Below, piece by piece: positions 9,227 to 11,829 of a stretch of DNA of 64,000 nt. The stretch is taken from sequence record PP239276.1; one strand, written 5' to 3'. The position numbers and the translations under genes were made by a program. A model generated the notes under the pieces. The model was not told where the DNA came from. It searched no databases and was given only the letters and a program-made list of their open reading frames with translations. The number at the start of each line of letters is the position of its first letter. The first letter of the stretch is position 1. Source of the stretch: Escherichia phage BME3.

Positions 9227-9300
9227 TTGGCAGCAAGGTGAGGAATCGAACCCCTTGATCTATGGTTTGGAGCCATATTGAGTACCATACTCTTTTAAAT
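9227..9300 (-). tRNA. tRNA-like element with Trp-type anticodon arm (CCA); acceptor pairing unresolved
   Basis: T-arm and anticodon arm TATGG/CTCCAAA/CCATA found, but no 5' strand pairs with the 3' acceptor CCTTGCT; possible degenerate or pseudo-tRNA. Confidence 0.3.
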
Positions 9301-9367
9301 CTACCCGGCTATGAGTTCCTTGAAGTGTCAATGTAACTTAATCATTACACCAGAAGGGAGGTATTTA

Positions 9368-9446
9368 TTGGAGGCGGGAGTAGGATTTGAACCTACGATC
9401 TCCAGCATATGAAACTGGCGAGGACGACCAGACTCCTCTATCCCGC
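9368..9446 (-). tRNA. tRNA-Met (anticodon CAU)
   Basis: T-arm GTAGG/TTCAAAT/CCTAC, anticodon arm CCAGT/TTCATAT/GCTGG, 11-nt D-loop, C1-C72 mismatch; CCA encoded. Confidence 0.55.
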
Positions 9447-9461
9447 GCAATCTGTAGTAAT

Positions 9462-9537
9462 TTGGTTGATAGTAAGAGAATCGAACTCTTCTCGCAATGC
9501 CTTATGAAAGCACTCGAAACGCCAGCTTCACACTATC
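9462..9537 (-). tRNA. tRNA with CAU anticodon (Met or Ile2)
   Basis: T-arm AAGAG/TTCGATT/CTCTT, acceptor TGATAGT/ACTATCA, anticodon loop TTCATAA. Confidence 0.5.
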
Positions 9538-9625
9538 AATGGCTAACCCTTTATAACCCGTCTTGGCGTGGTATCCTTAACAGGACGGTAGATATCCGTT
9601 GCAAACCCTATGATATCTCTTAGAT

Positions 9626-9710
9626 ATGGTAGCTAAGGTGAGACTCGAACTCACAATCCCTTGGGGCAATACGTTCTAAGCGTATCGTGTATACCATTCC
9701 ACCACTTAGC
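9626..9710 (-). tRNA. tRNA-Leu (anticodon UAG), type II
   Basis: 85 nt with long variable arm; anticodon arm ATACG/CTTAGAA/CGTAT; T-arm GTGAG/TTCGAGT/CTCAC. Confidence 0.6.
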
Positions 9711-9787
9711 CATAAAAATACACCACTGTAAGAAGCCTCAATGTGCTATTGACAGTTAACCAAGTCTACTCCTTGGATGGTGATATT

Positions 9788-9862
9788 TGGTGCAGAGAGA
9801 TGGTAACGATCCATCCTTTCTACCTTTTCAGGGTAGCACTAATCCGTCTCAGCTATCTCTGC
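9788..9862 (-). tRNA. tRNA-Phe (anticodon GAA)
   Basis: Acceptor GCAGAGA/TCTCTGC, anticodon arm CTACC/CTGAAAA/GGTAG; T-loop ATCGTTA is non-canonical. Confidence 0.5.
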
Positions 9863-9867
9863 AAATT

Positions 9868-9943
9868 TGGTCAGTGCGGCAGGACTCGAACCTGCGACCT
9901 GAAGCGTCCAAGGCTCCCACGCTACCAACTGCGCTACGCACTG
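9868..9943 (-). tRNA. tRNA-Pro (anticodon UGG)
   Basis: Perfect acceptor CAGTGCG/CGCACTG, D-arm GCGC..GCGT, anticodon arm GGAGC/CTTGGAC/GCTTC, T-arm GCAGG/TTCGAGT/CCTGC, CCA encoded. Confidence 0.7.
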
Positions 9944-9950
9944 TAAATCT

Positions 9951-10025
9951 TGGCTGGAGATCTAGGAATCGAACCTAGTCATCACGACTTCAAAGGCCGT
10001 TGCCTTCCCACTAGGCTAATCTCCA
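9951..10025 (-). tRNA. tRNA-Gln (anticodon UUG)
   Basis: Acceptor TGGAGAT/ATCTCCA, anticodon arm ACGGC/CTTTGAA/GTCGT, T-arm CTAGG/TTCGATT/CCTAG. Confidence 0.6.
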
Positions 10026-10124
10026 ATAAAACTAAAAATCACTTAAAAAGAACCGCTAGAGTTTGAAGGAGAAAACCATGAGCGAAAAGAGAAATTTTCT
10101 CTAGCGATTCCATTTAAATAATCT

Positions 10125-10199
10125 TGGAGCGAGTAACAGGACTTGAACCTGCACCTGGAGGGTGGAAACCTCATATGCTACCATTAACACTATACCCGC
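10125..10199 (-). tRNA. tRNA-Gly (anticodon UCC)
   Basis: Acceptor GCGGGTA/TACTCGC, anticodon loop TTTCCAC, T-arm GCAGG/TTCAAGT/CCTGT. Confidence 0.55.
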
Positions 10200-10254
10200 T
10201 TAACAATATTACTCTAACATATTATTAGCCCCTTTGTCAAGAGGCTTTTGATAT

Positions 10255-10584
10255 TTATTTTAAAATAGTAGATGAACCACGTCTGTTTAGATATGCAATA
10301 GTAAAGTCCAAATCACCTATTTCTTCAGGTTCCCACTGACCTTCTAAGCCATAACAAGAACAATGATATGCGTGTACTTCATAAAACAAAGATGTTTTCA
10401 TATCATAAAAATAAACGTGAGATTCACCTTCATAATATGCACAATCATAAGTGGCAGAAAGAATTACAATGTTATCCTTATCTAACTCTACTTCATAATA
10501 TCTTTCAACATCTTCAATATGATCAAAACCATCGAAAACATTGATATTAAAATATTTCTCTAACTCTTTTTCTGTCACATACAC
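10255..10584 (-). CDS. hypothetical protein embedded in tRNA cluster
   Basis: 109-aa ORF with GTG start preceded by AAGGAG RBS; Cys/Tyr/His-rich; no recognisable motif. Confidence 0.5.
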   Translation of the reverse strand: MYVTEKELEKYFNINVFDGFDHIEDVERYYEVELDKDNIVILSATYDCAYYEGESHVYFYDMKTSLFYEVHAYHCSCYGLEGQWEPEEIGDLDFTIAYLNRRGSSTILK

Positions 10585-10601
10585 TCCTTTAGAGTTAAAA
10601 T

Positions 10602-10676
10602 TGGTGCTCCCACAAGGACTCGAACCCTGATAAGTTGCTTACAAGGCAACCGTAATAGCCGTTATACGATAGGAGC
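10602..10676 (-). tRNA. tRNA-Thr (anticodon UGU)
   Basis: Acceptor GCTCCTA/TGGGAGC, anticodon arm GTTGC/CTTGTAA/GCAAC, T-arm CAGGG/TTCGAGT/CCTTG. Confidence 0.65.
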
Positions 10677-10682
10677 AATACT

Positions 10683-10759
10683 TGGACTCGACAGGATTCG
10701 ATACCTGCAATTCCAGAAGCCTCTTGGCGACTGGGGGTTTACCTTAACTCTACAAGTCC
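10683..10759 (-). tRNA. tRNA-like element (non-canonical: 8-nt T-loop, no clear anticodon arm)
   Basis: Acceptor GGACTTG/CGAGTCC and T-stem GCAGG/CCTGT enclose an 8-nt loop TATCGAAT; the interior forms a long hairpin (CCAGTCGCC-AAGA-GGCTTCTGG) rather than D/anticodon arms. Confidence 0.3.
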
Positions 10760-10766
10760 ATAATTC

Positions 10767-10851
10767 TGGCGATGGATCAAGGATTTGAACCTTGCTAGAA
10801 CTTTCGTTCACGGATTAACAGTCCGTCGCCCAACCACTAGGCCAATCCATC
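10767..10851 (-). tRNA. type II (long variable arm) tRNA with GUU (Asn) anticodon; Ser-like body
   Basis: 85 nt; acceptor GATGGAT/ATCCATC, discriminator G, 3-bp D-stem GCC/GGC, anticodon arm ACGGA/CTGTTAA/TCCGT, variable hairpin GAAC-GAAA-GTTC, canonical T-arm CAAGG/TTCAAAT/CCTTG. Confidence 0.5.
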
Positions 10852-10858
10852 TTTAATT

Positions 10859-10945
10859 TGGTGCAGGTAGTTGGACTCGAACCAACGAAGCCCAGAAGGG
10901 CAAGAGATTTACAGTCTCCAGCAATTGCCGCTATGCGATACCTAC
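10859..10945 (-). tRNA. tRNA-Tyr (anticodon GUA), type II
   Basis: 87 nt; acceptor GTAGGTA/TACCTGC, anticodon arm GGAGA/CTGTAAA/TCTCT, long variable arm, T-arm GTTGG/TTCGAGT/CCAAC. Confidence 0.6.
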
Positions 10946-10950
10946 GTGTT

Positions 10951-11026
10951 TGGTACATCGTGAAGGATTCGAACCTTCGACCTTGGAGTTAAAAGCCCCT
11001 TGCTCTACCAACTAAGCTAACGATGT
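10951..11026 (-). tRNA. tRNA-Lys (anticodon UUU)
   Basis: Perfect acceptor ACATCGT/ACGATGT, D-arm GCTT-AGTTGGTA-GAGC, anticodon loop CTTTTAA, T-arm GAAGG/TTCGAAT/CCTTC. Confidence 0.65.
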
Positions 11027-11150
11027 ATAAATTATCTTTAAAATAGCCAGTGTTTGCGGCACTTGACTATGGGATATCGGTAAGATGGTGGGGCCATCTG
11101 CCGAAAGTTTACTCTGTTAAAGTAAGATGACAAGCTACATTAAAGATAAC

Positions 11151-11236
11151 TTGGCGGTAGATGTAGGACTTGAACCTACACGCCGTTTCCGACGACAGTT
11201 TAGCAAACTGTTGTGGCTACCATTTCACCAATCTAC
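11151..11236 (-). tRNA. tRNA-Ser (anticodon GCU), type II
   Basis: 86 nt; acceptor GGTAGAT/ATCTACC, discriminator G, 3-bp D-stem GTG/CAC, anticodon arm ACAGT/TTGCTAA/ACTGT, long variable arm. Confidence 0.65.
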
Positions 11237-11245
11237 CGTTCTTAA

Positions 11246-11446
11246 TTATTCAAAACAACCGGAATCTTTTTGTTCTGCTTTTACCATACGAATATTTTTA
11301 CCATCTTCAGATTGTTGAAGATTAGAATACTCATAAATAACTTTATTATCTACAATCTTAACTCCGGTAACAACCTGTCCAATAGTTTTATAATTCATAA
11401 AGCTCCTAGTTGAATTTGGAGGAAGATAATGGAGTCGAACCATCAC
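11246..11446 (-). CDS. small hypothetical protein
   Basis: Track ORF overlaps tRNA-Ser(UGA) 3' end; AGGAG RBS before internal MNYKTIGQ suggests a ~50-aa product starting near 11398. Confidence 0.3.
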   Translation of the reverse strand: MMVRLHYLPPNSTRSFMNYKTIGQVVTGVKIVDNKVIYEYSNLQQSEDGKNIRMVKAEQKDSGCFE

Positions 11447-11506
11447 CGTATCGCTACAATGGGCCAGGGTTCAAACCTGGTTGCGCACCGCTGCGCCCTA
11501 CCTTCC
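11417..11506 (-). tRNA. tRNA-Ser (anticodon UGA), type II
   Basis: 90 nt; anticodon arm CCAGG/TTTGAAC/CCTGG, long variable arm, T-arm GATGG/TTCGACT/CCATT. Confidence 0.6.
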
Positions 11507-11569
11507 CGTTATCATACTTTAAATCTAACATAAAACTATGTTGCTTGTCAAGTAGTTTTTAAAACTTTT

Positions 11570-11651
11570 TGGCCGGGGTGACAGGATTCGAACCTGCATA
11601 CTCCAATTACTCGGTTAACGCCTGATTAGAAGTCAGGTGAGATACACCCCG
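11570..11651 (-). tRNA. tRNA-like element with Arg-type anticodon arm (UCU); D-arm not resolvable
   Basis: Acceptor CGGGGTG/CACCCCG and canonical T-arm; stem-loop CCTGA/CTTCTAA/TCAGG sits only 7 nt after the acceptor, followed by a 23-nt extra region. Confidence 0.35.
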
Positions 11652-11723
11652 TTTTCACAGTAACTATAACAAAAAACTAAGTAAATGTCAAGATATTTTT
11701 TACTAAATTGCTATTTAAATTGA

Positions 11724-11829
11724 AGCCTAGTTATGGAATCGAACCATATTTCGTATTTAGTTAGACAAAGCGATCTAACATATTTTTCAGGCTTTGATGG
11801 CCTCGGAATTACCAAATACCCTACCAGGC
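11724..11829 (-). tRNA. tRNA-like element (over-long, 8-nt internal loop; possible pseudo-tRNA or structured RNA)
   Basis: Canonical T-arm TATGG/TTCGATT/CCATA and 7-bp acceptor pairing spanning about 106 nt; interior contains hairpin GTTAGA-TCGCTTTG-TCTAAC instead of a canonical anticodon arm. Confidence 0.25.

What the first reader, a model, noticed from the sequence alone, without database searches (positions are those of the whole stretch)
9227..11829. tRNA cluster contains several non-canonical tRNA-like elements and three CAU-anticodon species
About 20 tRNA-sized units are packed on the minus strand. Four are not clean cloverleaves: 9227..9300 (acceptor strands do not pair), 10683..10759 (8-nt T-loop, interior folds as one long hairpin), 11570..11651 (Arg-type anticodon arm but no D-arm) and 11724..11829 (~106 nt, 8-nt internal loop). 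Three separate CAU tRNAs (9368, 9462, 11949) probably represent Met, fMet and Ile2. Aberrant phage tRNAs may be decoys or substrates for host tRNA-targeting nucleases, or processed small RNAs rather than decoders.
Basis: seen in the sequence. Interest (0 to 1): 0.45.

Follow-up and report, generated by a model that had tools for sequence, protein, structure and literature searches.

The report
Phage tRNA cluster hides D-armless tRNAs
Besides ordinary tRNAs, this coliphage tRNA cluster holds several conserved tRNA-shaped genes that standard tools miss, including an arginine tRNA without a D-arm hairpin that belongs to a family present in hundreds of phages, a shape the reviews I read describe only from animal mitochondria.

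Summary
The window comes from a phi92-like coliphage (Justusliebigvirus). All four flagged units exist and none is an ordinary cloverleaf, but they are not decaying junk.

- **Unit 3 (11570..11651, minus strand):** a tRNA-Arg(UCU) with no D hairpin. It belongs to a phage-specific family: 77 distinct variants, 265 phage records, 2 of 185,579 bacterial and archaeal genomes. Acceptor, anticodon and T stems covary strongly. A 3-bp helix between the 5' connector and the "variable" region replaces the D stem. 76 of 77 anticodons are Arg. No tRNA-rich locus with the UCU member also has a canonical Arg(UCU).
- **Unit 1:** it really starts at 9310. It is an 8/4-type tRNA-Trp(CCA)-like gene conserved in four phage lineages.
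- **Units 2 and 4:** both keep acceptor, D and T stems through compensatory changes, but the "anticodon" loop is not conserved. They are tRNA-like RNAs, not decoders.
- **The three CAU genes:** one is initiator-like (closest E. coli match is metY). One fits elongator Met and one may be Ile2.

Expression and charging are untested. I found no published description of D-armless phage tRNAs.

The parts
11570..11651 (-). Unit 3: tRNA-Arg(UCU) without a D hairpin, CCA encoded. Acceptor 11645..11651 with 11574..11580; connector UAU 11642..11644; helix P2 CUC 11639..11641 with GAG 11610..11612; anticodon arm 11621..11637 (anticodon 11628..11630); bulge 11613..11620; D-loop-like linker UAAUUGGAGUAU 11598..11609; T arm 11581..11597; G73 at 11573; CCA 11570..11572.
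   Evidence: Rfam tRNA 38.6 bits with the D arm deleted. Family alignment of 33 sequences: 99.2% of cells paired, 15 pairs with changes on both sides. P2 middle pair is U-A x26, C-G x2, G-C x1. Coordinates checked.
11663..11691 (-). Sigma-70-type promoter directly upstream of unit 3 (TTGACA, 17 nt, TATAGT, with TG before the -10 hexamer)
   Evidence: Consensus scan, 11 of 12 matches, the best in the region. It is a consensus match only; transcription was not shown.
9228..9310 (-). Unit 1: tRNA-Trp(CCA)-like, 8-bp acceptor and 4-bp T stem. Acceptor 9303..9310 with 9232..9239; helix P2 GAU 9299..9301 with AUC 9257..9259; hairpin GAGUA-UGG-UACUC 9280..9292; anticodon arm 9261..9277 (CCA 9268..9270); T arm 9240..9254; G73 at 9231; CCA 9228..9230.
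   Evidence: ARAGORN only at a relaxed threshold. Rfam 22.9 bits, below the gathering score. Homologs in KP13-26, Zyzzx and POP15, all unannotated. 10 pairs with changes on both sides in 4 sequences, including pair 8:72 and P2.
10683..10759 (-). Unit 2: tRNA-like RNA. Acceptor GGACUUG/CGAGUCC, D arm 10735..10750, irregular 22-nt inner hairpin 10713..10734, T arm 10691..10708 with the 8-nt loop UAUCGAAU. No usable anticodon loop and no encoded CCA.
   Evidence: Two alleles among relatives with compensatory changes in the acceptor stem (2 pairs changed on both sides, plus U.G to U-A at 6:67), the T stem and the inner stem. The 8-nt T loop is kept. The inner hairpin is 22 nt in one allele and 14 nt in the other. 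Found only in Stephanstirmvirinae.
11724..11829 (-). Unit 4: tRNA-like RNA. Acceptor 11823..11829 with 11725..11731; 6-bp D stem with tetraloop 11805..11820; stem-loop AGGC-CAUCAAA-GCCU 11789..11803; about 40-nt extra arm 11749..11788; T arm 11732..11748; U73 at 11724; no encoded CCA.
   Evidence: Homologs in Mydovirus-like contigs keep the acceptor, D and T stems by compensatory changes. There the loop is CAUCCA (6 nt), the extra arm has a different sequence, and CCA is encoded. Deleted in phage Paula and others. No Rfam match.
9369..9447 (-). CAU gene M3: initiator-type tRNA (C1 x C72 mismatch) whose anticodon stem lacks the three G-C pairs; loop UUCAUAU
   Evidence: ARAGORN and Rfam 50.6 bits. 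Best E. coli match is the tRNA-Met gene between argG and rimP, which is metY; median of 4 matching places per genome. The 1:72 mismatch is kept in the relatives aligned.
9463..9538 (-). CAU gene M2: probable elongator tRNA-Met with a 3-bp D stem. Present in only part of the genus.
   Evidence: ARAGORN only; not reported by Rfam. G2-C71, U4-A69, A5-U68 and A73 match the bacterial Met set listed in PMC9976931. 21 phage records. Absent from PaulScherrer.
11949..12024 (-). CAU gene M1: candidate tRNA-Ile2 (or Met). T loop AUUGUAA and a D loop without GG.
   Evidence: ARAGORN only. 57 phage records, 50 of them at least 99% identical. C29-G41 and U12-A23 are Ile-type determinants. No E. coli match. 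The assignment is inference.
11417..11506 (-). tRNA-Ser(UGA), which reads best as an 8/4 tRNA: acceptor GGAAGGUA/UAUCUUCC, T stem AUGG/CCAU, D stem GCGCA/UGCGC with tetraloop GCGG, 7-bp variable arm
   Evidence: ARAGORN. The best Rfam model is tRNA-Sec at 35.3 bits, below its gathering score. The 8/4 reading is from the sequence. 8/4 tRNA-Ser in phages is described in PMC5389517.
9147..9222 (-). tRNA-Ile(GAU), canonical
9627..9711 (-). tRNA-Leu(UAG), canonical
9788..10025 (-). tRNA-Phe(GAA) 9788..9862, tRNA-Pro(UGG) 9868..9943, tRNA-Gln(UUG) 9951..10025, all canonical
10125..10199 (-). tRNA-Gly(UCC), canonical
10602..10676 (-). tRNA-Thr(UGU), canonical
10767..11026 (-). tRNA-Asn(GUU) 10767..10851, tRNA-Tyr(GUA) 10859..10945, tRNA-Lys(UUU) 10951..11026
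   Evidence: Lys has two alleles among close relatives.
11152..11237 (-). tRNA-Ser(GCU), canonical
11832..11917 (-). tRNA-Leu(UAA), canonical

Best explanation
The cluster mixes three kinds of genes: (a) ordinary decoder tRNAs, mostly reading A-ending codons that the phage uses often; (b) real decoder tRNAs whose core is rearranged so that gene finders miss them; (c) tRNA-shaped RNAs with no working anticodon loop.

The clearest case of (b) is unit 3.
- It has a normal 7-bp acceptor stem, T arm and anticodon arm (loop CUUCUAA), but no D hairpin.
- A 7-nt connector UAUCUCA follows the acceptor stem.
- Its CUC pairs with a GAG that lies 8 nt 3' of the anticodon stem. This 3-bp helix (P2) closes around the anticodon arm and lengthens it, as the D stem does in a normal tRNA.
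- The next 12 nt (UAAUUGGAGUAU) read like a displaced D loop (A14, R15, G18, G19, A20, A21, then U48).
- Inferred: this stretch supplies the GG that docks on the T loop and the A that E. coli ArgRS uses as its main determinant (A20).
- Inferred mechanism: transcription from its own strong promoter, 5' trimming by RNase P, charging by host ArgRS through C35, U36, G73 and the GGA motif, delivery by EF-Tu, and decoding of AGA. AGA is 27% of the phage's Arg codons and is rare in E. coli.

Unit 1 is a second case of (b). It is a tRNA-Trp(CCA)-like gene with an 8-bp acceptor stem and a 4-bp T stem. A similar 3-bp helix, between the post-acceptor linker and the variable region, encloses a small UGG hairpin and the anticodon arm.

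Units 2 and 4 are class (c). They sit in the polycistronic array like tRNAs and keep their acceptor, D and T stems under selection. Their inner loop is not conserved, so they probably act through the acceptor/T half, for example as processing substrates, mimics or decoys. Their function is unknown.

The three CAU genes are an initiator-type tRNA, a probable elongator Met and a possible Ile2.

Shown here: the folds, covariation, distribution and anticodon statistics. Inferred: expression, charging, decoding and the three-dimensional model.
For: **Unit 3 family**
- Five distant phages (Felix O1, Sugarland, CMSTMSU, KB57 and the window) share the architecture, with compensatory changes.
- 33 distinct sequences: 99.2% of cells paired; 15 of the 20 pairs counted (17 in the acceptor, anticodon and T stems, 3 in a mini-hairpin) have changes on both sides; 0 of 500 shuffles reach this; partners slid by 1 to 3 columns pair in only 32-51% of cells. 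RNAalifold finds the same three helices and no D arm.
- Rfam aligns it with the D arm deleted.
- P2: the middle pair is U-A in 26 sequences, C-G in two L131 paralogs and G-C in Streptomyces phage Genie2.
- Anticodons in 77 distinct variants: UCU 70, ACG 4, CCU 2, ACU 1.
- Discriminator G in 45 and A in 25 of 74. CCA is encoded in 56 of the 75 distinct 82-mers counted.
- This matches the bacterial Arg identity set (A/G73, C35, U/G36, A20) given in PMC9976931.
- GGA is present in every member, including the divergent members that did not match the search pattern and so were not selected for it.
- One contig (L131) carries three paralogs with CCU, UCU and ACG anticodons.
- In 24 loci that hold a family member and at least 15 detected tRNAs, none has a canonical Arg(UCU); ARAGORN's one Arg(UCU) call there (L053) is a mis-folded D-armless gene. 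13 of them have a canonical Arg(ACG), (UCG) or (CCG). The sister genus (phAPEC8, ZCKP1) lacks the element and has a canonical Arg(UCU).
- Phage Paula's 16 annotated tRNAs, numbered 001 to 016, all lie in this cluster, and none is Arg.
- AGA is 11.3 per 1000 codons, 27% of Arg codons.
- The best promoter match in the region lies directly upstream.
- Within the genus unit 3 differs by 0.42%, against 3.4% and 10% for its flanking spacers.
- Phage-specific: 49 IMG/VR loci, 76 metagenome loci, 265 phage records, and 2 of 185,579 bacterial and archaeal genomes, both MAGs.

**Unit 1**.
**Unit 2**.
**Unit 4**.
**CAU genes**.
Against: - There are no expression, end-mapping or aminoacylation data for any of these genes.
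- Most family members were collected with a pattern that fixed the connector and variable-region motifs. The invariance of those motifs is therefore partly an ascertainment effect. Only five divergent members, which did not match the pattern, test it.
- P2 covariation rests on two or three independent events.
- The A20 and D-loop mimicry and the L-shape model are inference.
- Whether E. coli EF-Tu, ribosomes and modification enzymes accept a tRNA without a D hairpin is unknown.
- One locus (L025) has both a D-armless and a canonical Arg(UCU). One variant has the non-Arg anticodon ACU.
- Many of the 24 loci are close relatives, so the complementary distribution rests on fewer independent lineages.
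- Unit 1 has only four or five distinct variants, a conserved pyrimidine mismatch in the acceptor stem, and one relative (L184) with a 9-nt loop.
- Unit 4 and gene M2 are dispensable within the genus.
Confidence: 0.7

Rival explanations
1. Decoys. The aberrant units, including unit 3, are not used in translation. They mimic host tRNAs so as to soak up or distract host tRNA-targeting nucleases or toxins, or they are themselves the cleaved substrates.
For: Phage tRNAs are proposed to counter anticodon nucleases through changes in the anticodon loop (PMC10264068, listed). A decoy would also keep the anticodon loop while being free to change the body. Among near-identical phages the Lys(UUU) tRNA has alleles that differ in the D arm and anticodon stem, and the initiator-like gene has alleles that differ in the T stem (its unusual anticodon stem is the same in all relatives aligned); this fits an arms race. 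For units 2 and 4 the anticodon loop is not conserved but the acceptor/T half is, so mimicry of that half is possible.
Against: For unit 3, the same scaffold carries three different Arg anticodons, in one case in a single contig. It keeps A/G73 and an encoded CCA. It is not found together with a canonical Arg(UCU) in the tRNA-rich loci examined, and sits in a genome with 27% AGA among Arg codons. A decoy for one nuclease would not need the full aminoacylation identity set. No nuclease specific for these species was identified here.
Confidence: 0.15
2. Relics. The four units are decaying tRNA pseudogenes left by gene turnover in the cluster. What structure remains is inherited, not selected.
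For: Unit 4 and gene M2 are present or absent among near-identical phages. HNH endonuclease insertions show that the cluster is in flux. Units 2 and 4 have no usable anticodon loop. Unit 1 scores below the Rfam threshold.
Against: All four keep their stems through compensatory changes across genera or subfamilies. Their odd features are themselves conserved: the 8-nt T loop, the 8/4 stems, the 6-bp D stem, P2. Units 1 and 3 are as conserved within the genus as canonical tRNAs, while spacers vary 4-10%. Unit 3 occurs in 265 phage records from unrelated families.
Confidence: 0.07
3. Processing or mobility signals. The tRNA-like units, especially 2 and 4, exist only to give RNase P and other processing enzymes cleavage sites in the polycistronic transcript, or to serve as target or landing sites for the homing endonucleases common in these clusters.
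For: Units 2 and 4 lie 2-7 nt from neighbouring tRNAs, like array members. Only the acceptor/T half, which is what RNase P recognises (established knowledge), is strictly kept. HNH genes sit next to the unit 3 homolog in Felix O1 and Sugarland.
Against: The D arms and inner stems of units 2 and 4 are also maintained by compensatory changes, which a bare RNase P site would not need. Unit 4 is the last gene of its transcription unit, and phages without it keep the same neighbours. This idea does not explain the anticodon conservation in units 1 and 3.
Confidence: 0.08

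Closest known systems
D-armless mitochondrial tRNAs of metazoa (tRNA-Ser for AGY/AGN codons; nematode tRNA-Ser(UCU))
   Same: No D hairpin, with a short connector in its place. The acceptor, anticodon and T arms are kept, and the tRNA is thought to reach an L-like shape through an extended anticodon limb (reviews PMC7609411; PMC4013460 listed).
   Different: Those are organellar and Ser-specific, and in nematodes they work with a dedicated EF-Tu. Unit 3 is phage-encoded and Arg-specific. It has a canonical T arm, a 23-nt 'variable' region carrying a displaced D-loop-like sequence, and a covarying helix (P2) around the anticodon arm. 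It would have to work with unmodified bacterial ArgRS, EF-Tu and ribosomes.
allo-tRNAs and (8/4) tRNAs (Mukai et al. 2017, PMC5389517)
   Same: An 8-bp acceptor stem plus a 4-bp T stem (units 1 and Ser(UGA)). A long D stem with a very short loop (Ser(UGA), unit 4, partly unit 1). Found in phage tRNA clusters and missed by standard tools.
   Different: That paper reports 8/4 Ser and His in phages; 'Trp' does not occur in its text. Unit 1 lacks the long variable arm and has a 10-nt linker whose first part pairs with the variable region. Unit 4 has 7/5 stems.
tRNA-Sec (Rfam RF01852)
   Same: Unit 4 has a 6-bp D stem with a 4-nt loop, a long extra arm and, in this phage, UCA at the anticodon position. 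These are hallmarks listed in PMC7609411.
   Different: 12-bp (7/5) rather than 13-bp (8/5) acceptor/T branch, U73 rather than G73, and A rather than U at position 33. The loop is 6 nt (CAUCCA) in relatives. No Rfam match at E<=10.
Phage tRNAs with altered anticodon loops proposed to evade host anticodon nucleases (van den Berg et al. 2023, PMC10264068)
   Same: Phage-encoded tRNAs that deviate from the host's and may be shaped by host defence. The initiator-like gene here has an altered anticodon stem and loop, and Lys(UUU) has alleles that differ in the D arm and anticodon stem.
   Different: That work concerns point changes in otherwise canonical tRNAs. Here the core architecture is rearranged and the anticodon loop of unit 3 is the same as in E. 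coli tRNA-Arg(UCU) (CUUCUAA, my own knowledge).
Candidate structured RNAs of viruses that overlap tRNA predictions (Fremin et al. 2023, PMC10690425; csRNA DNAVirus_2961 overlaps tRNA-Arg calls)
   Same: A covariation-based survey of IMG/VR that noted tRNA-like motifs, possibly with non-canonical structure, only sometimes called by ARAGORN.
   Different: No structure, anticodon analysis or missing D arm is described in the text. I could not check whether DNAVirus_2961 is this family, because no supplement is held.
Stable small RNAs encoded in the tRNA region of phage T4 (species 1 and 2 RNAs), recalled from my own knowledge and not checked here
   Same: Non-decoder stable RNAs co-transcribed and processed with phage tRNAs, with function still unknown. 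This is the nearest precedent for units 2 and 4.
   Different: No sequence relation was tested. Units 2 and 4 are far more tRNA-like.

Membership tests
Canonical cloverleaf tRNA (Rfam RF00005) | Score at or above the Rfam gathering threshold (29 bits) | tested here: inconclusive
   Unit 3: 38.6 bits, met. Unit 1: 22.9 bits, not met. Units 2 and 4 and CAU genes M1 and M2: no match at E<=10.
Canonical cloverleaf tRNA (Rfam RF00005) | D arm: a hairpin of 3-4 bp with a 7-11 nt loop between position 9 and the anticodon arm | tested here: not met
   Unit 3: 7 nt in place of the D arm. Unit 1: a 10-nt linker, then a 5-bp stem with a 3-nt loop. Unit 4: a 6-bp stem with a 4-nt loop. Unit 2 has a near-normal D arm with an A/C mismatch.
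Canonical cloverleaf tRNA (Rfam RF00005) | 7-bp acceptor stem, 5-bp T stem and 7-nt T loop | tested here: inconclusive
   Met by units 3 and 4. Unit 1 is 8/4. Unit 2 has an 8-nt T loop in both alleles.
Canonical cloverleaf tRNA (Rfam RF00005) | 7-nt anticodon loop with U33, conserved among orthologs | tested here: inconclusive
   Met by unit 3 (all 77 variants) and by unit 1 in 4 of 5 variants. Not met by unit 2 (14-nt inner region in one allele, 6-nt loop in the other) or by unit 4 (A33; 7 nt here, 6 nt in relatives).
Substrates of bacterial ArgRS (tRNA-Arg identity set: A/G73, C35, U/G36, A20; PMC9976931) | C35 and U36 or G36 | tested here: met
   All 77 distinct variants have C35 with U36 or G36: UCU 70, ACG 4, CCU 2, ACU 1.
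Substrates of bacterial ArgRS (tRNA-Arg identity set: A/G73, C35, U/G36, A20; PMC9976931) | Discriminator A73 or G73 | tested here: met
   G in 45 and A in 25 of 74 distinct sequences. The window has G.
Substrates of bacterial ArgRS (tRNA-Arg identity set: A/G73, C35, U/G36, A20; PMC9976931) | A20 in the D loop (the main determinant in E. coli) | tested here: inconclusive
   There is no D loop. An invariant GGA lies in the 12-nt linker after P2, also in members that did not match the search pattern. Whether its A acts as A20 cannot be tested here.
Substrates of bacterial ArgRS (tRNA-Arg identity set: A/G73, C35, U/G36, A20; PMC9976931) | Actual arginylation | not testable with these tools
   Needs an in vitro charging assay or acid-gel analysis of RNA from infected cells.
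Metazoan mitochondrial D-armless tRNA | Absence of the D hairpin while the other arms are kept | tested here: met
Metazoan mitochondrial D-armless tRNA | Encoded in an animal mitochondrial genome, with Ser identity | tested here: not met
   The window is a phi92-like coliphage, the anticodons are Arg, and the family is found in phage records and viral contigs.
(8/4) tRNAs / allo-tRNAs (Mukai 2017) | 8-bp acceptor stem plus 4-bp T stem | tested here: met
   Unit 1: pair 8:72 is U-A, A-U or C-G in different lineages, while the alternative fifth T-stem pair (alignment columns 56 and 72) would be A/A, A/G, G-U, A/A. Ser(UGA): 8/4 read from the sequence only.
(8/4) tRNAs / allo-tRNAs (Mukai 2017) | Long D stem with a tetraloop, and a long variable arm | tested here: inconclusive
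   Ser(UGA): 5-bp D stem, GCGG loop, 7-bp V arm, so consistent. Unit 1: 5-bp stem with a 3-nt loop but no long V arm. Unit 4: 6-bp stem, tetraloop and long V arm, but 7/5 stems.
tRNA-Sec (RF01852) | 13-bp acceptor/T branch (8/5), G73, UCA anticodon in a 7-nt loop, and a match to the Rfam model | tested here: not met
   Unit 4: 7/5 stems, U73, A33, a 6-nt loop in relatives, and no Rfam match at E<=10.
Bacterial initiator tRNA | Mismatch at 1:72, and closest similarity to host initiator genes | tested here: met
   M3 has C1 x C72, and the pair is mismatched in the relatives aligned. The best E. coli match is the tRNA-Met gene between argG and rimP (metY), with a median of four matching places per genome.
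Bacterial initiator tRNA | Three consecutive G-C pairs at the bottom of the anticodon stem | tested here: not met
   M3's anticodon stem is CCAGU/GCUGG with loop UUCAUAU.

The most novel reading that the evidence does not exclude
Phages of enterobacteria and actinobacteria encode a dedicated family of arginine tRNAs in which the D arm has been turned inside out. Its stem closes around the anticodon arm, and its loop sequence follows as a single strand leading into the T arm. If these tRNAs are charged by the host ArgRS and used on bacterial ribosomes, they would be the first natural tRNAs without a D hairpin known to work outside animal mitochondria. The tRNA-Trp-like gene of the same cluster (unit 1) uses a related trick, a helix between the post-acceptor linker and the variable region. 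That suggests a wider, unrecognised class of rearranged-core tRNAs that phage annotation pipelines overlook. The rearrangement may be selected because it hides the tRNA from host enzymes that read the canonical D-arm and elbow region.
Probability: 0.5. Interest if true: 0.85.

Novelty: new variant of a known kind. Interest (0 to 1): 0.72.

Why it matters
The reviews I read describe tRNAs without a D arm only from metazoan mitochondria. In nematode mitochondria, dedicated EF-Tu variants have co-evolved with such truncated tRNAs.

A conserved Arg-specific tRNA family without a D hairpin sits in classical, easily grown phages: Felix O1, wV8, phi92, 121Q/PBECO4 and members of the BASEL collection. 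That makes several questions directly testable:
- How much of the tRNA core do bacterial ArgRS, EF-Tu, RNase P, the modification enzymes and the ribosome really need?
- How is A20-dependent arginine identity read when there is no D loop?
- Do phages reshape tRNA bodies to escape tRNA-targeting defences?

It also has a practical side. These genes are unannotated, or labelled "tRNA-OTHER" or "Undet", in most of the 265 phage records. Phage tRNA inventories and codon-compensation analyses therefore systematically lack their AGA (and probably UGG) decoders.

The scaffold could also be useful for building orthogonal tRNAs.

Tried and rejected
**Folds**
- A mini-hairpin YCG/YGG inside the variable region of unit 3. 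It is compatible with one-sided changes, but it overlaps the GAG that covaries with the connector. I dropped it in favour of P2.
- A long helix GUAUUUGGU/ACUAAAUAC in unit 4, taken from the minimum-energy fold. I rejected it because the Mydovirus-like homologs support a local 6-bp D hairpin instead.
- ARAGORN's relaxed-threshold folds of unit 1 (start 9305, weak acceptor stem) and of unit 2 as 'tRNA-Leu(CAA)'. The unit 1 fold is superseded by the 8/4 model. The Leu call fails because there is no long variable arm, position 33 is C, and the other allele has only a 6-nt loop.
- Unit 4 as tRNA-Sec or as a UGA suppressor. It has 7/5 stems, U73, A33 and a 6-nt loop in relatives, and there is no Rfam match. 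Phage ORFs of 120 codons or more (53 kept, 12,867 codons) are found when all three stops are read as stops, so nothing points to UGA reassignment.

**Searches that led nowhere**
- One mistyped pattern scan for unit 1 found nothing. The corrected scan found only 4 loci.
- Scans for more distant relatives of unit 2 and unit 4 found only close relatives, plus one chance match in coding DNA.
- Using the 109-aa ORF inside the cluster to fetch related clusters gave only 3 close loci.
- Pfam found nothing for the four small ORFs tested, three inside the cluster and one at its edge.
- E. coli genome searches with M1 and M2 found nothing.
- The supplement of PMC10690425 is not held.
- Nine literature searches for phage tRNAs without a D arm found none. 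The library lacks most subscription journals, so an earlier description cannot be excluded.

**Other spacers.** None looked tRNA-like at E<=10. Spacers 9539..9626 and 9090..9146 fold no better than shuffled sequence.

Full report
**Source and overall layout**

The 3.3-kb region is 99.1% identical to Escherichia phage W22 and 96-99% identical to other phi92-like phages (Justusliebigvirus, Stephanstirmvirinae). ARAGORN at default settings finds 16 tRNA genes on the minus strand between 9147 and 12024. Rfam finds 14 at the gathering threshold. One of these, 11573..11651, is missed by ARAGORN. Rfam in turn misses three ARAGORN genes: 9463..9538, 11417..11506 and 11949..12024. In annotated relatives the four units are either unannotated or, for unit 3, labelled "tRNA-OTHER" or "tRNA-Undet".

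**Unit 3 (11570..11651): what is there**

Read 5' to 3' on the minus strand, the gene is:

- CGGGGUG (acceptor stem, 5' strand)
- UAUCUCA (connector)
- CCUGA CUUCUAA UCAGG (anticodon arm)
- CGUUAACCGAGUAAUUGGAGUAU (23-nt "variable" region)
- GCAGG UUCGAAU CCUGU (T arm)
- CACCCCG (acceptor stem, 3' strand), then G, then CCA

Coordinates were checked. The Rfam tRNA model aligns it at 38.6 bits only by deleting the D arm (15 model positions replaced by 4 nt) and inserting 20 nt in the variable region.

**Unit 3: a widespread family**

- A blastn search found the same 80-odd nucleotides at 82-86% identity in unrelated phages.
- An alignment with Felix O1 (Ounavirinae), Sugarland (Demerecviridae), CMSTMSU (a jumbo Asteriusvirus) and KB57 (Vequintavirinae) showed the same architecture. 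The connector and variable region are invariant, and all three stems carry compensatory changes.
- Pattern scans recovered 49 loci from IMG/VR, 76 from metagenomes, and only 2 from 185,579 bacterial and archaeal genomes, both of them MAG contigs.
- A blastn search with the Sugarland copy finds 265 phage records, most without any annotation at the site.

**Unit 3: covariation**

On 33 distinct sequences, 99.2% of cells form standard pairs and 15 of the 20 pairs counted change on both sides. No shuffle out of 500 reaches this, and sliding the partners by 1 to 3 columns drops pairing to 32-51%. RNAalifold independently returns the acceptor, anticodon and T helices and no D arm.

**Unit 3: what replaces the D arm**

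A covariance model built from the family found divergent members that the patterns had missed.

- In two paralogs on contig L131 the connector is UAUCCCC and the variable region has GGG where the others have GAG.
- In Streptomyces phage Genie2 the connector is UAUCGCC and the variable region has GCG.
- So connector positions 11-13 pair with variable-region positions 40-42. The middle pair is U-A (26 sequences), C-G (2) or G-C (1).

This 3-bp helix, which I call P2, closes around the anticodon arm and stacks on it. Together they give about nine layers, close to the D stem plus anticodon stem of a normal tRNA.

The 12 nt after P2 (UAAUUGGAGUAU) read like a D loop followed by position 48: A14, R15, two pyrimidines, G18, G19, A20, ..., A21, U48. 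GGA is kept in every member, including the divergent ones that did not match the search pattern.

My reading, which is inference, is a tRNA whose D arm has been permuted. The D stem encloses the anticodon arm. The D-loop sequence then runs as a single strand to the T stem, where it can still dock its GG on the T loop and present an A where ArgRS expects A20.

**Unit 3: a decoder or something else?**

Several observations point to an arginine-accepting decoder.

- Among 77 distinct variants the anticodon is UCU in 70, ACG in 4, CCU in 2 and ACU in 1, always in a 7-nt loop with U33.
- The discriminator is G or A in 70 of 74, and CCA is encoded in most.
- The bacterial arginine identity set is A/G73, C35, U/G36 and A20 (PMC9976931).
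- Contig L131 carries three paralogs with CCU, UCU and ACG, which is a full Arg decoding set on one scaffold.
- In 24 loci with a family member and at least 15 detected tRNAs, none has a canonical tRNA-Arg(UCU), while 13 have a canonical Arg(ACG), (UCG) or (CCG). ARAGORN's single Arg(UCU) call in that set (L053) is a second D-armless subtype mis-folded as a 98-nt gene.
- The sister genus (phAPEC8, ZCKP1) lacks the element and has a canonical Arg(UCU) at a similar place in the cluster.
- Phage Paula's 16 annotated tRNAs, numbered 001 to 016, all lie in this cluster and include no Arg.
- In this window AGA is 27% of Arg codons, 11.3 per 1000. AGA is one of the rarest E. coli codons (established knowledge).
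- The other tRNAs of the cluster mostly read A-ending codons that are common in the phage.
- Unit 3 has the best promoter match of the region directly upstream: TTGACA, 17 nt, TATAGT, with an extended -10 TG.
- Within the genus it differs by 0.42%, against 3.4% and 10% for the spacers on either side.

Exceptions and limits: locus L025 has both forms, one variant has the anticodon ACU, many of the loci are related, and nothing here shows expression or charging.

**Unit 1 (9228..9310)**

With the start at 9310 the acceptor stem is AGCCGGGU/ACCUUGCU: 8 bp with one C/U mismatch.

Homologs exist, all unannotated, in Klebsiella phage KP13-26 (Stephanstirmvirinae), Hafnia phage Zyzzx (Ounavirinae) and Pectobacterium phage POP15 (Vequintavirinae). 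On these four sequences:

- The eighth acceptor pair is U-A, C-G or A-U, and the first pair of a 4-bp T stem also covaries.
- The alternative 7/5 reading would need A/A and A/G pairs.
- In all, ten pairs change on both sides, while slid controls give at most two.
- After the acceptor stem comes a 10-nt linker. Its positions 2-4 pair with the variable region (G-C or A-U; A-U, C-G or G-C; U-A). This helix, like P2 of unit 3, encloses a 5-bp hairpin with a UGG loop and the anticodon arm.
- A1-U72, G73 and the CCA anticodon are kept in all four. As I recall them, these are the E. coli Trp determinants.

ARAGORN finds no other Trp tRNA in the window. Unit 1 is as conserved in the genus as the canonical tRNAs (0.9%).

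I read it as a real but non-canonical tRNA-Trp, with less confidence than for unit 3. There are few variants, and one relative (L184) has a 9-nt loop.

**Unit 2 (10683..10759)**

The description holds: 8-nt T loop, interior folding as one hairpin. Relatives carry one of two alleles.

- Differences in the acceptor stem: G-C to U-A, A-U to G-C, U.G to U-A.
- One compensatory change each in the T stem and the inner stem.
- Both alleles share the 8-nt T loop UAUCRAAU, an A/C mismatch in the D stem, and the AAUU variable loop.
- The inner hairpin is 22 nt in one allele and 14 nt (4 bp plus a 6-nt loop) in the other, so there is no conserved anticodon.

The element is confined to Stephanstirmvirinae. 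It is a tRNA-shaped RNA under selection for its stems, and not a decoder.

**Unit 4 (11724..11829)**

Within the genus only the loop of the extra arm varies, while the spacer after the unit is full of changes. About half of the genus lacks the unit through a clean deletion.

An nhmmer search of the loci fetched earlier turned up homologs just upstream of the D-armless Arg gene in Mydovirus-like contigs. Comparison supports:

- a 7-bp acceptor stem (three pairs compensated);
- a 6-bp D stem with a tetraloop (two pairs compensated);
- a 5-bp T stem (two pairs compensated);
- conserved A-rich flanks at the base of an extra arm whose hairpin has a completely different sequence in each lineage.

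The loop at the anticodon position is CAUCAAA here and CAUCCA (6 nt) there, with A at position 33. CCA is encoded in the Mydovirus-like copies but not here.

The D arm and extra arm recall tRNA-Sec and the allo-tRNAs. However, the 7/5 stems, U73 and the absence of any Rfam match exclude membership. Its function is unknown, and I do not think it decodes.

**The CAU genes**

- **M3 (9369..9447):** its best E. coli match is the tRNA-Met gene between argG and rimP, which is metY, with a median of four matching places per genome. It has a 1:72 mismatch that is kept in the relatives aligned. It lacks the three G-C pairs of the initiator anticodon stem.
- **M2 (9463..9538):** it has G2-C71, U4-A69, A5-U68 and A73, the bacterial Met set. 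It is present in only 21 records.
- **M1 (11949..12024):** it is in all 57 genus records found, nearly invariant. It has C29-G41 and U12-A23, which are Ile-type determinants. It also has an unusual elbow: T loop AUUGUAA and no GG in the D loop. ATA is 10.4 per 1000 codons in the phage.

**Prior knowledge**

Nine full-text searches found no description of phage tRNAs without a D arm.

- The 2020 review of natural non-canonical tRNAs does not contain the word "phage" and places D-armless tRNAs in mitochondria only.
- Mukai et al. 2017 described 8/4 tRNA-Ser and tRNA-His in phages. The Ser(UGA) gene here fits that type.
- A 2023 survey of viral structured RNAs lists a motif that sometimes overlaps tRNA-Arg predictions. 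I could not check whether it is the same family.

The library lacks most subscription journals, so an earlier report cannot be excluded.

**Verdict**

Two of the four units are non-decoder tRNA-like RNAs. The other two, together with several neighbours, are best explained as working tRNAs with rearranged cores. The D-armless arginine tRNA family is the notable result. I file it as a new variant of a known kind, because it is still a tRNA and D-arm loss is known from mitochondria.

Noticed in passing
window 11417..11506 (-): tRNA-Ser(UGA) reads best as an 8/4 tRNA: 8-bp acceptor stem, 4-bp T stem, 5-bp D stem with a GCGG tetraloop, and a 7-bp variable arm. The best Rfam model is tRNA-Sec at 35.3 bits, below its threshold. 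It matches the 8/4 tRNA-Ser type reported from phages (PMC5389517).
   Followed up: partly
window 10951..11026 (-); L058, L101: tRNA-Lys(UUU) has two alleles among otherwise near-identical phages. The acceptor and T arms are the same, but the D arm and anticodon stem are replaced (18 variable sites, more than in most spacers). This could reflect diversifying pressure on a tRNA targeted by known anticodon nucleases.
   Followed up: partly
window 9369..9447 (-): The initiator-like tRNA has T-stem alleles (GUAGG/CCUAC and AUCGG/CCGAU) among close relatives. The 1:72 mismatch is kept in each relative aligned. The anticodon stem lacks the initiator's three G-C pairs.
   Followed up: partly
window 11027..11151 (-): The 125-nt spacer between Ser(GCU) and Lys folds far better than shuffled sequence (z = -5.2, 11-bp closing stem). 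Yet it is one of the most variable stretches among relatives (8.4% differences, with indels).
   Followed up: no
window 10026..10124 (-): The 99-nt spacer between Gly and Gln forms a long hairpin (z = -4.1) followed by a U-rich run. It may be a terminator or a small RNA, and it is highly conserved in the genus.
   Followed up: no
L003 (Felix O1) 354..684; L004 (Sugarland) 391..682; L102 (PATM) 1147..1506: HNH endonuclease genes lie directly 3' of the D-armless Arg gene in Felix O1 and Sugarland. Another is inserted between tRNA-Pro and tRNA-Gln in phage PATM. In Klebsiella phage K18PH07C1 only the 5' half of the element matches, and an HNH gene is annotated there.
   Followed up: no
L025 1522..1692 (-): Here the D-armless Arg gene is flanked by a 12-bp inverted repeat that extends the acceptor stem. 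It is followed directly by a canonical tRNA-Arg(UCU). This is the only locus seen with both forms.
   Followed up: partly
L131 4105..4183, 8601..8679, 11204..11282 (-); L053 13348..13426; L047 2689..2763: One metagenomic contig carries three D-armless paralogs (CCU, UCU, ACG). Other contigs carry divergent subtypes with different connectors (UAUGCCG; UAUCUCC with a 19-nt variable region). The architecture is therefore broader than the sequence pattern used to find it.
   Followed up: partly
window 9463..9626 and 11724..11829 (-): Gene M2 with its 88-nt downstream spacer, and unit 4, are each present or absent among phages that are otherwise 96-99% identical.
   Followed up: partly
window 10258..10584, 11249..11398, 12035..12298 (-): Three small ORFs (109, 50 and 88 aa) lie between the tRNA genes. 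None has a Pfam match. The 109-aa protein has 36-62% identical relatives in about 40 viral contigs.
   Followed up: partly
window 11918..11948: A GC-rich hairpin (AGGAGGUGCUAUGCAUCUCCU) lies between CAU gene M1 and tRNA-Leu(UAA). It is annotated as a bidirectional terminator in phage Paula, but no U-run follows it.
   Followed up: no
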